Below, piece by piece: positions 25,101-49,100 of a stretch of 64,000 bases of DNA (positions are counted from its first letter, which is position 1; every line of letters begins with the position of its first letter). A program made the position numbers. This DNA comes from Okamejei kenojei (taxonomy: Eukaryota), in the NCBI GenBank assembly GCA_035221665.1, contig CM069154.1, positions 14,074,001-14,138,000 of the forward strand, read 5' to 3'.

Positions 25101-28100
25101 CCTCTGGAAGAGCTGCTGAGATCCCTGGGTGGATGTGAGAGAGGAGGTGTAGGGACAAGTATTGCATCTCCTGCAGTTGTAGGGTAGAGTACCTGGGGAG
25201 GCGGTGGTTTGGATGGGAAGGGATGAGTGAACCAAGGAGTTGTGGTCTCTGCGGAAAGCGGAAAGGGGTGGAGAAGGAAAAATGAAAGCAATTCCGAAGG
25301 AACTTAGTTGGGGGCTTTTCGTGGAGTGTGTGAGGCCTTGAGGGTGAGGCCTCAGTGTACGGAGCATCTGTTGCCGTGGCCAGTCTGAGGTAGAAAGGCT
25401 CTCATGCAGTAATATTTCCTCAGTGATGGCTGCATCTAACCCCGGAGTCATTGACCATGGTTCGGACATGATGTGGGATATTTGGCAGCCACGATAGCCA
25501 CGACCGTGTCAGTGCTGAGGAGACACTCCTGCGCTGCCTGGTGAAGTGGAGTCAGCGGTAACCTCCTCCCGTCTGGTTCCGAGCCCCGACAGCTGGACTG
25601 GGTTGAGGTGTCGGAGGGCGAATGACCTCCACACCAGCGATCTTCCGTCAGTCCTTTAGAAAAAACAGTCTCTCAGAGCAGCAGAGTTAATTGCAATCAA
25701 GCTCCTTACACGTGGGTCAATGTTTAAAGTCATAGAGTCACATAGCGTGGAAAGAGGGTCTTCAGTCCCACTTGCTCACACCGACCAACATGTCCCATCT
25801 ACACTAGTCCCACGTGTGTGTTTGGCTCATACCCCTCTGAACCAGTCCTATCCATATACCTGTCTAATCGCTTCTTAAATGTTGTGATAGTCCCTGCCTC
25901 TTCTCCGTGGATTGTCACCTTGTTGTGGTGGAGAAGCTTGTGTGGACCTGAGATCCTGAGAGCGATGCCGTCTGGAGCTATGCTCCTGGGAGGGCCACCC
26001 ATGGCGGTAAGGTCGAGGGGGAGGTCTCTGTCGAAGAGCAATCCAACCAAGACCTCAATGGTGGAACAGGCGGAGGACGATGGCTGCCCTTAGTGGAGCG
26101 TCACAGCGGCTGGTAAGGTGGATGAAGGCTGCAGCAGAAAAGGGTCTTCAGTCGTCTTGGACTCCATGCCACTGGATCCTGACCCAGATCTGTCAAGGAC
26201 TGTGGGGTGGCTGTCTTTGAACCAGTCTCCCCACGTTAAACAAAGTCACGCACAGGCATCCTCCATGTAAGGAATAGCACCCTGGAGACGCCCATGGTTA
26301 GCCATGACCGAAATGAGCCTAAGAAGTCCCTGCCTCAACTAACTCCACTGACAGCTTGTTCCATATGCCCCCCACACTTTGTGTGAAAAAGTAATCCTTT
26401 AAATTCCTAGAAATTCTTTCCCCTCCACCTTAAACCAATGTCCTCTAGTTCTTGATTGCCCTACTCTGGGCAAGAGACTGTGCATCTACTCGATCTATTC
26501 CTCTCACAATTTTATACACTATGTCCCTCCCTTATTCTCGCTGGAGTTTGGTTCACAATCAGCCAACTATTTTAGGTATGTTTCCATTGCTTCGGTTCAC
26601 ATCCTGTGCAACGGGAGGGAGGGGTGGAGATGAGAATGTGTGGGAGAGAGAGATGGAGACTGGGAGAGGGAGAAGAGGAGAGAGAGAGAGATGCAAACTG
26701 GGAGAGGGAGACTAGGGGAGATGAGAAAGAGAGACGGAGACTGGGTGAAGCGGGAGAGAGTGATGAAGACTGTGGAGATGGGCGAGAGAGAGACTGGGGG
26801 AGGGGAGAGAAAGATGGATATTGTGGGAAGGGGTGAGAGGAAGATGGAGATATGGGAGATGAGAGAGACAATGGGGGACTAAGTGGGAGTGAGAGCTGGA
26901 GAGTGCTGTGGGAAGTGCAGAAATAGGAGGGGTGTTGACTGACACAAAGAATGGACATATCTTAGATAAAGTTCCTGGGCACAGATGCACGAGATTGGCA
27001 TTGGGAGCTCGTAGCACCACTGGCGAGGTGTGTTTGTTGAGTTGACTTTGCAATCTGTTGTCTTCCTCTGGCATCTCCTGGGGCCATCACTGGCTGCCCA
27101 TCAGAGGGTCTAATACCCCAGCCACTCCCTACCCCGTGCCGACAGCTGGTACACTTCACTCACCGTCTCTGCCGCCGGTAAGCAACACCCAGCAAGCCGA
27201 GCAGCAGCAACAGGCAGAGGGCGGTGAGCAAGAGGCTGGCGGTCACTGCCGCAGGTGAGAGCGAGCGCTCTCCGTCCCCGAGATCCTGGTACCGGACAAC
27301 TGGAAGCAGAGGGACGGCATCGGAGATGAATGCATGAACGATACTTCATTATCACATGTGACATGTCACAATGAAAGTTTTTGTTTTGAACACCATACAC
27401 AAAGTATGCAAAGAGTCACCACGTATGGGGCGCCCACAAAGTTACAAAGTGCTCGGTGCAGCCAACTTTAGTAACTTGTATAAAAATTCAACATTTTTGG
27501 ACAGACATTTTTTAAATTATCTCTGAAGTTATCAATAACCAACTGGACCCAGATCCAAAATTAATAATATTAGGATTATCAGAACATAGCATAAACTTTA
27601 CGATAAGCCAGAGACACTTTCTTGATTACAGTCTAATAACTGCGAAAAAATTAATACTAAAAGTTTGGAAAAAACCAGCAGCCCCCACAATTAAAATGTG
27701 GATTACGGAAATGACTGAGACCTTGCATTTGGAAAAAAATAAGATTTGTCTTAATTGACAAACCAAAATTATTTGTTAGAACATGGCCTCCATTTATTGA
27801 ATTCTTAAAAAAGTGAATTGGTTTAACACAAAATCAGGGTTGAAACCTGAGATTGGGATTGGATGAATATTTCTTCTTAGTATCTCCTGGATCTATCTCC
27901 ACAATCTTGTTATTTGTAATTTTTTTTTTCGTCTTTTTCTCTCTATTAGTTTATAGTTTCTCTTATCATTTTCTCTCTTTATCTTTATTCTTTAAAAAAA
28001 TTAAAAAAGTGAAGCTAGGTAAGAAATCTGTAATTAAATTGTCGCTTACTACTATTTGTATACATGCTTCTAATAAAAATATTTAAAAAAAACCCCAAAA

Positions 28101-46100: not shown

Positions 46101-49100
46101 AGTCAATGCACCTGTGATGCTGCTGTCGGCAGGATTCTCATTGTACCTGTACCTCACCTGTTCTTGTGCAGATGGCAGTAAACCCAATTTGACCTGAGTT
46201 TAAGACGGCTTAGGTTTTCGAGACAGAGAGCTGGAGGAGGGATGGAGAAAGGGATGGAAGTTAAAGAAGAAGCTGGTGACTGTTTCCTTACCTAGAGTGA
46301 ATGTTGCCAGCCACAGACACACATTGAGATGGCACACAGCGCTGAGTTTCGAGATGGTCTCCATTCTCCCTCAGCTTTCAGGCAGCTTTGCCTCTGCAGC
46401 CGGTAGTATTTATGTCCTGTGTCAGTCGCCCAGTTTGTCGACGAGGATCTTTCTGAAATACTTCAGCAAAATGTTAAATAAACAGTTTATTCTGGCCAAA
46501 TGTCAGCCTTTTGCTGATACTGCATACAGTCACTAGTTTTGATAACACTGCCCTTTGCAAAACACGGGGGGGAGGGGGAGATTCAATAGTGTGTTATTTT
46601 TTAATAAGCTCTGAAAATTCATTTTCTGAAGAGTTTCAGGCATCCGTGGCTTGGGCTCTTCAGTTTTGATGGTATTTTTAATTTTCGACCCAAGTTCTCA
46701 GCATCTGCTGTGTTATGCATTTGATCCAATATGTTCAAATTCACCACCAGAAAACACCAACCCTGTTCATTGCTGTGAACCTCCACACCCCTCTCCTCTC
46801 ATCTGGGCAGGGTAGCGTAACACAGCTGACTCTGCCCCCCTTTGGTGCGTTTAGTTTAGTTTAGAGATACAGCACGGAAACAGGCCATTCGACCACCGAG
46901 TCATCGCTGACCAGTGATCACCCCGTATACTGGCACTATCCTACACACGAGAGACAATTTACAATTTTTACCGAAGCCAAACTAACCTACAAACCTGTAC
47001 ATCTTTGGCGTGTGGGAGGAAACCAGAGCACTCGGGGAAAACCCACACAGGTCACAGGGAGAGGTACAAACTCCGATGTGTGTGATTTGAATGTGAGTGC
47101 TGTGTTGTGTGGGAGTGGTGAGAAAATATGTTAAAAATATGGCATGCCACATTATATCAGTGTATGGCCAGTGTGGATCACTTTTATCCCCCAAAATAAA
47201 CTTTATTCACAATAATTATGTACCAGATAAGAACAGTGCAAAAACTCTTCTTGACATTCTCAGCAGCTGTACATATAGAAACATAGAAACATAGAAATTA
47301 GGTGCAGGAGTAGGCCATTCGGCCCTTCGAGCATGCACCGCCATTCAATATGATCATGGCTGATCATCCAACTCAGTATCCCGTACCTGCCTTCTCTCCG
47401 TACCCTCTGATCCCCTTAGCCACAAGGGCCACATCAAACTCCCTCTTCATTATAGCCAATGAACTGGCCTCAACTACCCTCTGTGGCAGAGTTCCAGAGA
47501 CTCACCACTCTCTGTGTGAAAAAAAGTCTTTCTCATCTCGGTCTTAAAGGATTTCCCCCTTATCCTTAAGCTGTGACCCCTTGTCCTGGACTTCCCCAAC
47601 ATGCAGGAACAATCTTCCTGCATATAGCCTGTCCAACCCCTTAAGAATTTTGTAAGTTTCTATAAGATCCCCTCTCAATCTCCTAAATTCTAGAGAGTAT
47701 AAACCGAGTCTATCCAGTCTTTCTTCATAAGACAGTCCTGACATCCCAGGAATCAGTCCGGTGAACCTTCTCTGCACTCTATGGCAATAATGTCCTTCCT
47801 CAGATTTGGAGACCAGAACTGTACGCAATACTCCAGGTGTGGTCTCACCAAGACCCTATACTACTGCAGTAGAACCTCCCTGCTCCTATATTCCAATCCT
47901 TTTGCTATGAAAGCTAACATACCATTCGCTTTCTTCACTGCCTGCTGCACCTGCATGCCTACTATCAATGACTGGTGTACCATGACACCCAGGTCTCGCT
48001 GCATCTCCCCTTTTCCTAATCGGCCACCATTTAGATAATAGTCTGCTTTCCTGTTTTTGCCACCAAAGTGGATAACCTCACATTTATCCACATTATACTG
48101 CATCTGCCAAACATTTGCCCACTCACCCCAGCCTATCCAAGTCACCTTGCAGCCTCCTAGCATCCTCCTCACAGCTAACACTGCCCCCCAGCTTGGTGTC
48201 ATCCGCAAACTTGGAGATATTGCCTTCAATTCCCTCATCCAGATCATTAATATATATTGTAAATAGCTGGGGTCCCAGCACTGAGCCTTGCGGTACCCCA
48301 CTAGTCACTGCCTGCCATTGTGAAAAGGACCCGTTTACTCCTACTTTTTGCTTCCTGTTTGCCAGCCAGTTCTCTATCCACATCAATACTGAACCCCCAA
48401 TGCCGTATGCTTTAGGTTTGTATACTAATCTCTTATGTGGGACCTTGTCGAAAGCCTTCTGGAAGTCCAGATACACCACATCCACTGGTTCTCCCCTATC
48501 CACGCTACTAGTTACATCCTCGAAAAATTCCACAAGATTCGTCATTCATGATTTACCTTTTGTAAATCCATGCTGACTTTGTCCAATGATTTCACCACTT
48601 TCCAAATGTGCTGCTATCCCATCTTTAATAACTATCAGTTTCCCCACTACCGATGTTAGACTAACTGGTCTGTAATTCCCGGTTTTCTCTCTCCCTCCCT
48701 TCTTAAAAAGAGGGGTTACATTTGCTACCCGCCAATCCTCAGGAACTACTCCAGAATCTAAAGTGTTTTGAAAGATTATCACTAATGCATCCACTATTTC
48801 CAGAGCTACTTCCTTAAGTACTCTGGGATGCAGCCTCTCTGGCCCTGGGATTTATCGGCCTTTAATCCATTCAATTTACCCAACACCACTTCCTGACTAA
48901 CTTGGATTTCACTCAATTCCTCCTTTGACCCGTGGTCCCCTGCTATTTCCGGCAGATTATTTATGTCTTCCTTAGTGAAGACGGAACAAAGTAGTTATTC
49001 AAGTGGTCCACCATATCCTTGTTCCCCATGACCAACTCACCTGTTTCTGACTGCAAGGGACCTACATTTGTTTTAACAAATCTCTTTCTCTTCACATAAC

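What the first reader, a model, noticed from the sequence alone, without database searches (positions are those of the whole stretch)
25509..46364. Unnamed CUB + 2xFN3 + uroplakin-3-like single-pass membrane protein gene between CDKN1A and RAB44
Seen in sequence: 12 minus-strand exons with canonical GT-AG sites and matching phases give a stop-free frame. They are 46364-46292, 44838-44764, 44514-44380, 42712-42485, 41814-41626, 40811-40713, 38995-38874, 37771-37588, 36517-36362, 33795-33564, 28880-28804 and 27299-27164. The protein reads signal peptide, CUB, FN3, FN3, UPK3-like domain, TM, then RRQRR; with the tentative last exon it is about 616 aa. Established knowledge: CDKN1A and RAB44 are near neighbours at human 6p21.2, and I know of no such protein gene there. 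Inference: this architecture matches no named vertebrate gene I recognise. It may be an ancient surface receptor or adhesion molecule lost in mammals, or a lineage-specific exon-shuffling product.
Basis: partly seen in the sequence, partly recalled or inferred. Interest (0 to 1): 0.85.

Follow-up and report, generated by a model that had tools for sequence, protein, structure and literature searches.

The report
Unnamed shark/ray uroplakin-3-like receptor gene
This is a real, intact gene for a cell-surface protein that joins a CUB domain and two fibronectin domains to the membrane-proximal module shared by uroplakins and R3 tyrosine-phosphatase receptors; public databases list it only as "uncharacterized" in sharks and rays.

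Summary
All 12 exons, plus a 13th last exon (25653-25509), lie on the minus strand. All 12 introns are GT-AG. Every exon is open in its phase, giving 616 codons plus a stop. Each exon has a colinear match in at least one elasmobranch protein named "uncharacterized protein": Mobula birostris, Hemitrygon akajei or Mustelus asterias.

Pfam run exon by exon finds both halves of a CUB domain and parts of two FN3 domains. The "UPK3-like" reading is confirmed and can be stated more exactly. Exons 9-12 carry intron phases 1,1,2,1,2 and the C-x(n)-C-NGPL motif. Chicote et al. [quoted passage not shown] A profile of the orthologues hits solved uroplakin 3A first (E 6.6e-9).

There is no phosphatase domain. 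In the best tree the family lies outside both the small UPK2/3 proteins and the catalytic R3 PTPRs, but that placement is not firm (AU p 0.06).

The most likely role is a non-catalytic surface receptor, possibly paired with a tetraspanin; this is inferred. Age, tissue and the RAB44 neighbour were not verified.

The parts
46292..46364 (-). Exon 1: ATG at 46364, hydrophobic signal peptide, 73 nt, donor GT
   Evidence: 57% identical over 23 residues to the N-terminus of Hemitrygon P0003. No Pfam hit.
44764..44838 (-). Exon 2: short Cys-containing linker with one N-x-S/T site, 75 nt, phase 1-1
   Evidence: 69% identical over 16 residues to P0001 and P0003, E 2e-4. No Pfam hit.
44380..44514 (-). 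Exon 3: N-terminal part of the CUB domain, 135 nt, phase 1-1. Absent from Mustelus isoform X2.
   Evidence: Pfam CUB profile 8-39, E 6.7e-5, 23.6 bits against a cut-off of 21.4. 73-80% identical to P0001, P0003 and P0004.
42485..42712 (-). Exon 4: C-terminal part of the CUB domain, 228 nt, phase 1-1, no cysteine
   Evidence: Pfam CUB profile 39-110, E 1.8e-3. 72% identical to Mobula and 75% to Mustelus over 75 residues.
41626..41814 (-). Exon 5: first part of FN3 domain 1, 189 nt, phase 1-1
   Evidence: Pfam fn3 profile 2-47, E 2.5e-3. 66% identical to P0001.
40713..40811 (-). Exon 6: end of FN3 domain 1, 99 nt, phase 1-1
   Evidence: No Pfam hit on its own. 84% identical to P0001 over 32 residues. 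In P0001 the region lies inside the Pfam fn3 matches.
38874..38995 (-). Exon 7: first part of FN3 domain 2, 122 nt, phase 1 in and 0 out
   Evidence: No Pfam hit on its own. 46-53% identical to P0001, P0003 and P0002. P0001 residues 272-351 are fn3.
37588..37771 (-). Exon 8: end of FN3 domain 2 plus linker, 184 nt, phase 0 in and 1 out
   Evidence: Pfam fn3 profile 41-83, E 1.7e-8. 73% identical to P0001.
36362..36517 (-). Exon 9: first exon of the UPK2/3-R3-PTPR juxtamembrane (JM) domain, carries cysteine C1, 156 nt, phase 1-1
   Evidence: 70-74% identical to the ray orthologues. Aligns with the start of the UPK3A ectodomain in the profile hit.
33564..33795 (-). Exon 10: second JM exon with C2 and the C3-x5-C4-NGPL motif, 232 nt, phase 1 in and 2 out
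   Evidence: 49-54% identical to P0001 and P0002. Falls inside the family clade, 100/99 support. The motif is defined in PMC5242461.
28804..28880 (-). Exon 11: last JM strands (Y-V-L-V ... S-Q-W-S-E-P), 77 nt, phase 2 in and 1 out
   Evidence: 82% identical to Mustelus and 65% to Mobula. The same block aligns to UPK3A.
27164..27299 (-). Exon 12: pre-membrane spacer, transmembrane helix, basic stop-transfer, 136 nt, phase 1 in and 2 out
   Evidence: 54% identical over 37 residues to P0001. In the P0001 model the matching residues 532-563 form a helix.
25509..25653 (-). Exon 13: cytoplasmic tail of 47 codons and the stop (25511-25509), no catalytic domain
   Evidence: Acceptor and frame. 53% identical over 47 residues to the P0001 C-terminus. 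No Pfam hit.

Best explanation
The locus is an intact 13-exon gene for a type I single-pass membrane glycoprotein of 616 residues. In order it has a signal peptide, a divergent CUB domain, two FN3 domains, the long FN3-like juxtamembrane (JM) domain typical of UPK2/3 uroplakins and R3 receptor tyrosine phosphatases, a transmembrane helix, and a tail of about 50 residues with no catalytic domain. All of that is shown.

The rest is inferred. UPK3 and UPK2 use this same JM and TM module to pair in cis with the tetraspanins UPK1b and UPK1a. I therefore propose that the protein most likely reaches and sits on an epithelial surface as a partner of a tetraspanin. It would hold the distal CUB-FN3-FN3 arm out as a ligand-binding or adhesion arm, and signal or be sorted through its short conserved tail. 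In evolutionary terms it is a non-catalytic relative of uroplakins and R3 PTPRs that has kept FN3 domains and gained a CUB domain.
For: Gene model:
- 12 of 12 introns are GT-AG and 13 of 13 exons are open.
- 13 of 13 exons match orthologues in order.
- All cassette exons 2-6 are phase 1-1.

Domains:
- CUB and fn3 were found exon by exon.
- In the full-length database orthologues, P0001 has CUB at E 3e-8 and fn3 at 8.8e-18. P0004 has CUB at 6.6e-10.

JM domain:
- The intron phases before exons 9, 10, 11 and 12 and after exon 12 are 1,1,2,1,2. This is exactly the pattern given for UPK2/3 and for PTPRQ, PTPRB and PTPRJ (PMC5242461 section 9).
- Exon 10 carries C-x5-C-NGPL, the motif that paper reports only in UPK2/3 and R3 PTPRs.
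- A three-sequence orthologue profile has solved uroplakin 3A (8jj5_C) as its top PDB hit. E is 6.6e-9, profile positions 388-551 against chain residues 45-224. P0001 alone gives E 1.5e-4.
- The deep search with the same profile returns small proteins matched only in the JM/TM region at E 3e-13 to 3e-9. Several of them carry weak Pfam Uroplakin_II or PTP_tm matches.
- An AlphaFold model of orthologue fragment P0008 (mean pLDDT 69.8) has 8jj5_C at rank 2 by E-value. That hit has the best TM-scores (0.39/0.44) and the lowest rmsd (5.3 A over 169 columns) of the rows shown.

No phosphatase: the tail is 47 codons with no Pfam hit, and P0001 and P0002 have no Y_phosphatase.

Tetraspanin pairing of UPK2/3 is taken from the passages of PMC5242461 and PMC3922775 that I read.
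Against: - Nothing here shows a tetraspanin partner, expression, or the tissue.
- Pfam's own PTP_tm and Uroplakin_II models do not reach P0001 or P0002 at E <= 1, nor the window's exons at E <= 10.
- The window's exons 9 and 10 alone find no uroplakin in the PDB. The link rests on orthologue profiles, intron phases and the motif.
- In the JM tree the family groups with non-catalytic EGF/FN3 proteins (93/91, not starred) rather than with the 11 small UPK2/3-like rows.
- The tail lacks the Y-x-T-H block seen in the tails of several small UPK-like and FN3-JM relatives in alignment A3.
- The two ray orthologues lack cysteine C1.
- The CUB domain has no cysteine in its second half and is modelled with low confidence (pLDDT about 50-65).
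Confidence: 0.45

Rival explanations
1. A tetraspanin-independent, non-catalytic R3-RPTP-like receptor. The ectodomain (CUB, FN3, JM) binds matrix or cell-surface ligands as R3 PTPR ectodomains do. Without a phosphatase it would act as an adhesion molecule, a co-receptor, or a decoy that competes with catalytic R3 PTPRs.
For: - The architecture is FN3 domains, then JM, then TM, as in R3 PTPRs.
- In the best tree the nearest JM relatives are long non-catalytic proteins with FN3 and EGF arrays: P0007, P0010, P0013, P0016 and P0132 (98/97* for that sister set, 93/91 for the join).
- The tail lacks the UPK3-type Y-x-T-H block.
Against: - The JM-only HMM scores the small UPK2/3-like proteins (55-78 bits) far above the catalytic R3 PTPRs (14-25 bits).
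- The top solved relative is UPK3A.
- R3 PTPRs have FN3-only ectodomains, whereas this protein has a CUB domain.
- No ligand is known.
Confidence: 0.33
2. A canonical UPK3 paralogue, for example the cartilaginous-fish counterpart of fish UPK3d, that gained CUB and FN3 exons by exon shuffling within elasmobranchs. That would make it a young, lineage-specific fusion rather than an old gene.
For: - The added exons 2-6 are all phase 1-1, and the FN3-2 exon pair 7+8 is phase 1-1 as a block. This is the class that shuffles freely.
- All named orthologues are elasmobranchs.
- Forcing the family together with the 11 small UPK2/3-like rows costs 12.0 log-likelihood units and is not rejected (AU p 0.062).
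- DeSalle et al. 2014 place the UPK3b/UPK3d duplication at or before the split of cartilaginous and bony fish.
Against: - The free tree puts the family with FN3/EGF-bearing non-catalytic proteins.
- P0016, only 29% identical in FN3 and JM, also has a CUB-like N-terminal stretch (27% over 132 residues, E 2e-6) ahead of its FN3 domains. That argues the arrangement is older than one lineage, although the organism of P0016 is unknown.
- The clade for the AU test was named after the tree was seen.
Confidence: 0.15
3. Not a working gene: a decaying pseudogene or a chance chain of open frames.
For: Introns are full of retroelement fragments.
Against: - 616 codons have no stop or frameshift, and 12 of 12 introns are canonical.
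- Identity to proteins of a manta, a stingray and a houndshark is 46-86% per exon, and highest in domain cores.
- Key cysteines and the NGPL motif are kept.
Confidence: 0.03

Closest known systems
Uroplakin 3A/3B (UPK2/3 tetraspanin-associated family; solved as 8jj5 chain C)
   Same: [quoted passage not shown]
- The C-x(n)-C-NGPL motif and the Y-R-x-[KR]-Y-V-L-V ... W-S-x-P block.
- A TM helix directly after the domain, an intron just after the TM, and intron phases 1,1,2,1,2.
- UPK3A is the top PDB sequence hit for the orthologue profile (E 6.6e-9) and the best-fitting single structure for the P0008 model.
   Different: - Uroplakins are about 180-320 residues with only this one ectodomain. 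This protein adds a CUB and two FN3 domains.
- The tail has no Y-x-T-H block.
- Pfam Uroplakin_II does not match.
- The best tree places it outside the small UPK2/3-like rows, though this is not significant.
R3 receptor protein tyrosine phosphatases (PTPRQ, PTPRB, PTPRJ)
   Same: FN3 domains followed by the same juxtamembrane domain and a TM helix. The exon phases of that region are the same (PMC5242461).
   Different: - No phosphatase domain: 47-codon tail, no Pfam hit.
- A CUB domain at the N-terminus, whereas R3 ectodomains are FN3-only.
- Only two FN3 domains.
- JM-only HMM scores to the catalytic R3-like proteins are low (14-25 bits). Five of the six such rows carry Y_phosphatase.
- Those six rows form a separate clade (100/100).
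Tunicate R3-related sequences without a PTP domain ('CionaNocat', Chicote et al. 2017)
   Same: FN3 domains, then JM, then TM, then a short non-catalytic tail. That paper treats this layout as the intermediate between a PTPRQ-like gene and UPK2/3.
   Different: - CionaNocat has five FN3 domains, no CUB, a furin site, and a tail resembling UPK3a.
- I could not compare sequences. They are in a supplement that is closed, and the deep-search library has no names. P0013 has that layout, but its organism is unknown.
Unnamed database relatives with EGF_CA/FN3 arrays plus the JM domain (P0007, P0010, P0011, P0013, P0015, P0016, P0021, P0132)
   Same: - The closest JM domains outside the family: 74-107 bits to the JM-only HMM.
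- No Y_phosphatase was found in any of the 8 scanned.
- P0016 also has a CUB-like stretch before its FN3 domains.
   Different: They are much longer or carry EGF arrays. Identity in FN3 and JM is only about 29% for P0016, the one pair compared. Organisms and names are unknown, and some may be fused or partial gene models.

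Membership tests
UPK2/3-R3 PTPR long FN3-like juxtamembrane domain superfamily (Chicote et al. 2017, PMC5242461) | The domain and TM are encoded by four exons flanked by introns of phases 1,1,2,1,2, with the last intron just after the TM | tested here: met
   The cumulative exon lengths give phases 1,1,2,1 before exons 9-12 and phase 2 after exon 12. 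Exon 12 ends right after the TM and the basic residues. The pattern is as stated in section 9 of the paper.
UPK2/3-R3 PTPR long FN3-like juxtamembrane domain superfamily (Chicote et al. 2017, PMC5242461) | Motif 5: C3-x(n)-C4-N-G-P-L, reported only in UPK2/3 and R3 PTPRs | tested here: met
   Exon 10 reads C-x5-C-N-G-P-L. The motif is conserved in P0001 and P0002, shortened in P0003, and varied in P0004 (N-G-Q-L).
UPK2/3-R3 PTPR long FN3-like juxtamembrane domain superfamily (Chicote et al. 2017, PMC5242461) | Cysteine pair C1-C2 upstream of C3-C4 | tested here: met
   Exon 9 has one cysteine and exon 10 has three, at the aligned positions of C1 and C2-C4 in A3. The ray orthologues P0001 and P0003 lack C1. 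Disulfide bonding itself was not tested.
UPK2/3-R3 PTPR long FN3-like juxtamembrane domain superfamily (Chicote et al. 2017, PMC5242461) | Significant sequence similarity of the domain to a bona fide member | tested here: met
   Orthologue profile A2 against the PDB: UPK3A (8jj5_C) at E 6.6e-9 over about 165 positions. P0001 alone gives 1.5e-4. Against this, window exons 9 and 10 alone gave no uroplakin hit, and the Pfam models PTP_tm and Uroplakin_II were not matched.
Canonical uroplakin UPK3 (UPK3a/b/c/d) | A small protein whose ectodomain is the JM domain alone | tested here: not met
   A CUB domain and two FN3 domains precede the JM domain. The protein has 616 residues.
Canonical uroplakin UPK3 (UPK3a/b/c/d) | Phylogenetic position inside the UPK2/3 clade | tested here: inconclusive
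   The free tree places it with non-catalytic FN3/EGF-JM proteins (93/91). Holding it with the 11 small UPK2/3-like rows is not rejected (AU p 0.062). The rows carry no names, so none is a certified UPK3.
Canonical uroplakin UPK3 (UPK3a/b/c/d) | Heterodimer with the tetraspanin UPK1b | not testable with these tools
   No tetraspanin of this organism is in the window or the session, so no complex prediction was sent.
R3 receptor protein tyrosine phosphatase | A single cytoplasmic PTP domain | tested here: not met
   The tail exon has 47 codons and no Pfam hit. P0001 and P0002 have no Y_phosphatase.
R3 receptor protein tyrosine phosphatase | An ectodomain made of FN3 domains only | tested here: not met
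   A CUB domain is present. Exon 3 alone scores 23.6 bits, above the Pfam cut-off of 21.4, and P0001 scores 34.4 bits.
CUB domain (Pfam PF00431) | A match to the Pfam model above its gathering score, covering the domain | tested here: met
   Exons 3 and 4 cover profile positions 8-39 and 39-110. P0001 scores 34.4 bits and P0004 39.7 bits. The domain is divergent: no cysteine in exon 4 and low model confidence.

The most novel reading that the evidence does not exclude
The gene may be a surviving vertebrate representative of the stage that Chicote et al. 2017 proposed between a PTPRQ-like receptor and the uroplakins. Such a protein would have lost the phosphatase but still carry FN3 domains. 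Here it would have been retooled with a CUB domain, kept in cartilaginous fishes at the CDKN1A locus and lost in bony vertebrates. It would work as a new kind of tetraspanin partner with a long ligand-binding arm.
Probability: 0.2. Interest if true: 0.65.

Novelty: new variant of a known kind. Interest (0 to 1): 0.45.

Why it matters
In the papers I read, the UPK2/3 family has six members, all small proteins. Its proposed origin by domain loss from a PTPRQ-like receptor rests on tunicate intermediates. A vertebrate gene that joins the same juxtamembrane/TM module to FN3 and CUB domains, without a phosphatase, adds a seventh, differently built branch.

It also gives a concrete object for testing two questions. 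One is whether the module alone dictates tetraspanin pairing. The other is what an extended ectodomain does on such a scaffold.

In practical terms, the loci currently labelled 'uncharacterized' in shark and ray annotations can now be described by domain content and superfamily.

Tried and rejected
- Exon 10 as a query for longer database proteins found nothing: 14 candidates, none at E <= 1e-3. The word-index search is lossy. It also missed Mustelus P0002 when Mobula P0001 residues 361-609 were the query.
- phmmer of exons 10 and 9 against the PDB gave one chance-level row (E 0.85) and none.
- Pfam PTP_tm and Uroplakin_II were not matched by the exons or by P0001 and P0002.
- Foldseek with the full-length P0001 model (mean pLDDT 66.5) was swamped by tandem-FN3 structures. 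8jj5_C was not among the 50 ranks printed. The shorter P0008 model was more telling.
- The two protein-atlas calls scored below 0.9, so they are leads only. For the JM part of P0001 the top rows were a PTP_tm-bearing cluster (0.89) and 'UPK3B protein (Fragment)' (0.84). P0016 gave nothing useful (0.78).
- Rfam found 0 matches in the window.
- The solved p21 and p27 chains score alike for the CDI exon (2.4e-11 against 3.6e-11). The p21 call rests on the Q-x-x-I-T-D-F-Y box read across the last intron and on my recall of p21.
- RAB44 could not be verified.
- No complex prediction was sent, because no candidate partner sequence was at hand.
- The bacterial/archaeal, phage, plasmid and E. coli collections were not used, as they are irrelevant to a vertebrate gene.
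- The closed collections (metagenome contigs, viral contigs) were not touched.
No search, fold or domain scan of a spliced model of this window was made. Full-length statements rest on database orthologues.

Full report
**1. The observation**

Exons 2-12 all have AG before them (11 of 11), and exon 1 starts with ATG at 46364. I translated each exon on its own, in the frame fixed by the summed lengths of the exons before it. All twelve are free of stops.

After exon 12 the phase is 2. The acceptor with the best pyrimidine tract lies just before 25653, and from there the frame runs 47 codons to a stop at 25511-25509.

**2. It is a real gene with orthologues**

Exon 4 alone, searched against longer database proteins, found two:
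- P0001, 'uncharacterized protein' of Mobula birostris (609 aa, 72% identical).
- P0002, 'uncharacterized protein LOC144511928 isoform X2' of Mustelus asterias (571 aa, 75% identical).

A third, P0003 of Hemitrygon akajei (537 aa, also 'uncharacterized'), came from a search with P0001.

Per-exon blastp gives 13 of 13 exons a colinear match at E <= 2e-4 in at least one of four orthologues. Exons 2-13 match P0001 residues 27-609. Exon 1 matches the first 23 residues of P0003. Identity per exon to P0001 runs from 46% (exon 7) to 84% (exon 6).

Three database models lack single cassette units:
- Mustelus X2 lacks exon 3.
- Fragment P0009 lacks exon 4.
- P0004 lacks the first FN3 domain.

In the window, exons 2-6 are each phase 1-1, and the FN3-2 pair (exons 7+8) is phase 1-1 as a block. 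Such omissions therefore keep the reading frame. I cannot tell whether they are real isoforms or prediction gaps.

**3. Domains**

Exon by exon, Pfam finds the two halves of a CUB domain and parts of two FN3 domains:
- CUB: exon 3, profile 8-39, E 6.7e-5, above the curated cut-off. Exon 4, profile 39-110, E 1.8e-3.
- FN3: exon 5, profile 2-47. Exon 8, profile 41-83, E 1.7e-8.
- Exons 6, 7, 9, 10 and 11 gave nothing on their own.

The database orthologues carry the same domains as whole proteins. The CUB domain is divergent: exon 4 has no cysteine, and the AlphaFold model of P0001 is weak there.

**4. The membrane-proximal domain**

Three independent lines confirm this and make it more exact.

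(a) Gene structure. Chicote et al. 2017 (PMC5242461; I read the abstract and section 9) describe the domain shared by UPK2/3 uroplakins and the R3 phosphatases PTPRQ, PTPRB and PTPRJ. It is encoded by four exons flanked by introns of phases 1,1,2,1,2, with the fifth intron just after the TM. The window's exons 9-12 have exactly these phases, and exon 12 ends just after the TM.

(b) Motif. The same paper names C3-x(n)-C4-NGPL as a signature found only in these two families. Exon 10 has C-x5-C-NGPL, and the window also has the C1 and C2 cysteines.

(c) Sequence and fold.
- A profile of the three named orthologues has solved uroplakin 3A (8jj5 chain C) as its best PDB hit. E is 6.6e-9 and the match covers most of that ectodomain plus the TM.
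- In the 1.84-billion-protein library, the same profile finds small proteins that match only this region at E 3e-13 to 3e-9. Several of them have weak Pfam Uroplakin_II or PTP_tm matches.
- A model of orthologue fragment P0008 fits 8jj5_C better than any other structure listed: rmsd 5.3 A over 169 columns, TM 0.39/0.44, rank 2 by E-value.

Against this, exons 9 and 10 alone find no uroplakin in the PDB. Pfam's own two models of the region do not match the family.

**5. Where it sits among relatives**

The deep search returned 541 proteins at E <= 1e-3, 104 at <= 1e-10 and 18 at <= 1e-30, and listed the best 150. Many are unrelated CUB- or FN3-rich giants. I built a local HMM of the juxtamembrane and TM part only. 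It matched 31 of the 151 stored proteins, which fall into four sets:
- The family itself: P0001-P0004, P0008, P0023.
- Long non-catalytic proteins with FN3 and often EGF_CA arrays: P0007, P0010, P0011, P0013, P0015, P0016, P0021, P0132. Scores are 74-107 bits, except P0132, which holds only the first part of the domain (35.6 bits). No Y_phosphatase was found in the 8 scanned.
- Small UPK2/3-like proteins, at 55-78 bits.
- Catalytic R3-type phosphatases, at only 14-25 bits. Y_phosphatase is present in 5 of the 6 scanned.

I made a maximum-likelihood tree of 34 rows, with exon 10 of the window entered as a row of its own and no rows dropped. Its results:
- The window's exon falls inside the family (100/99).
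- The catalytic phosphatases stand apart (100/100).
- The 11 small UPK-like rows group together (89/86).
- The family sits next to the non-catalytic FN3/EGF proteins (93/91, not starred).

Forcing the family together with the small UPK-like rows is not rejected (AU p 0.062). That group was chosen after seeing the tree. The root is unknown.

P0016 is only 29% identical in FN3 and JM, yet it has a CUB-like stretch ahead of its FN3 domains. This hints that the arrangement is older than one lineage. The library gives no organism names, however, and the look-up tool was off.

**6. How it most likely works**

Shown: the product is a type I membrane protein. It has a signal peptide, N-glycosylation sequons (8 N-x-S/T across the ectodomain exons), a CUB-FN3-FN3 arm, a uroplakin/R3-type juxtamembrane domain, one TM helix, and a 47-codon tail exon with no known domain. 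The tail is 53% identical between this window and the manta.

Inferred: UPK2 and UPK3 pair through this same module with the tetraspanins UPK1a and UPK1b (passages read). I therefore rate a tetraspanin-associated surface receptor or adhesion protein as the most likely mode (0.45).

The main rival is a tetraspanin-independent, non-catalytic R3-like receptor or decoy (0.33). It is favoured by the tree position and by the absence of the Y-x-T-H tail block seen in relatives. A recent elasmobranch exon-shuffling origin from a UPK3 paralogue remains possible (0.15). A dead gene is very unlikely (0.03).

**7. Comparison with known families, and novelty**

The protein meets the tested defining features of the UPK2/3-R3 PTPR juxtamembrane superfamily. 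It fails the definitions of a canonical uroplakin, because it has extra domains. It also fails the definition of an R3 phosphatase, because it has no PTP domain and has a CUB domain.

The two uroplakin-evolution papers I read list six UPK2/3 members, all small. They describe FN3-bearing non-catalytic forms only in tunicates. Four full-text searches found no paper describing a CUB-FN3-uroplakin-like protein.

I class this as a new variant of a known kind. It is already present in public annotation but unnamed.

**8. Surroundings**

A CDK-inhibitor exon with a full Pfam CDI domain lies at about 12166-12658 on the plus strand. Solved p21 and p27 score alike against it. The last coding exon starts at about 16601 and completes a Q-x-x-I-T-D-F-Y box across the intron. 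From recall, that box is the p21 (CDKN1A) type.

The putative RAB44 first exon at 61409-61792 has no Pfam match, and I had no search left to name it. The 'between CDKN1A and RAB44' setting is therefore half verified.

The introns and flanks are rich in retroelement remains. Rfam finds nothing.

Noticed in passing
window 12166-12658 (+) and about 16601-16656 (+): A CDK-inhibitor gene. One exon carries a complete Pfam CDI domain (E 3.2e-13). A short last exon completes a Q-x-x-I-T-D-F-Y (PIP-box-like) motif across a phase-1 intron, then a basic C-terminus. Solved p21 and p27 score alike, so the p21/CDKN1A call rests on the C-terminal box, which I recall rather than tested.
   Followed up: partly
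It has no Pfam match at E <= 0.01, and no homology search was left to test it.
   Followed up: partly
window 2209-5993 (-): A tyrosine-recombinase retroelement of DIRS-like layout. Open frames match Phage_integrase and its SAM-like N-domain (2209-3252) and reverse transcriptase RVT_1 (4181-4942), with further long open frames between and upstream.
   Followed up: partly
window 8152-10206 (+), especially 8527-8946: A very C-rich stretch (GC 0.67, GC skew -0.59) with a 7/21-base CCTCTCC-type tandem array of about 60 copies. It gives long proline/serine 'open frames' in several frames. It lies upstream of the CDK-inhibitor gene and looks like low-complexity DNA, not coding sequence.
   Followed up: no
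window 11665-12182 (+): Tandem repeats of 30-, 65-, 95- and 150-base periods directly upstream of, and running into, the frame that holds the CDI domain. The 150-base unit has 2 copies at 96% identity.
   Followed up: no
window 45524-45756, intron 1 of the gene: A 24-base tandem repeat, 9.8 copies at 90% matches, open in several frames on both strands. A second repeat of 40-base period lies at 45109-45242.
   Followed up: no
window 47544-50386 (-) and 18257-20149 (-): LINE-type retrotransposon remains. One frame has an endonuclease domain (Exo_endo_phos_2, 49234-49872, E 1.6e-10), and the neighbouring frames look like reverse transcriptase. The spurious N-terminus of the Mobula model P0001 resembles the end of such elements (tblastn hits at 18506-18565 and 47634-47678).
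   Followed up: partly
database proteins P0001, P0003 (rays) against the window and P0002 (shark): The two ray orthologues lack the first juxtamembrane cysteine (C1), which the window and Mustelus keep. P0003 also has a shortened C3-C4 loop and no TM, possibly because the gene model is incomplete.
   Followed up: no
database proteins P0010, P0011, P0015, P0132: Very long unnamed proteins that combine dozens of calcium-binding EGF domains with FN3 domains and the same juxtamembrane domain, without a phosphatase. None of the papers I read mentions this architecture. Their organisms are unknown, and they could be fused gene models.
   Followed up: partly
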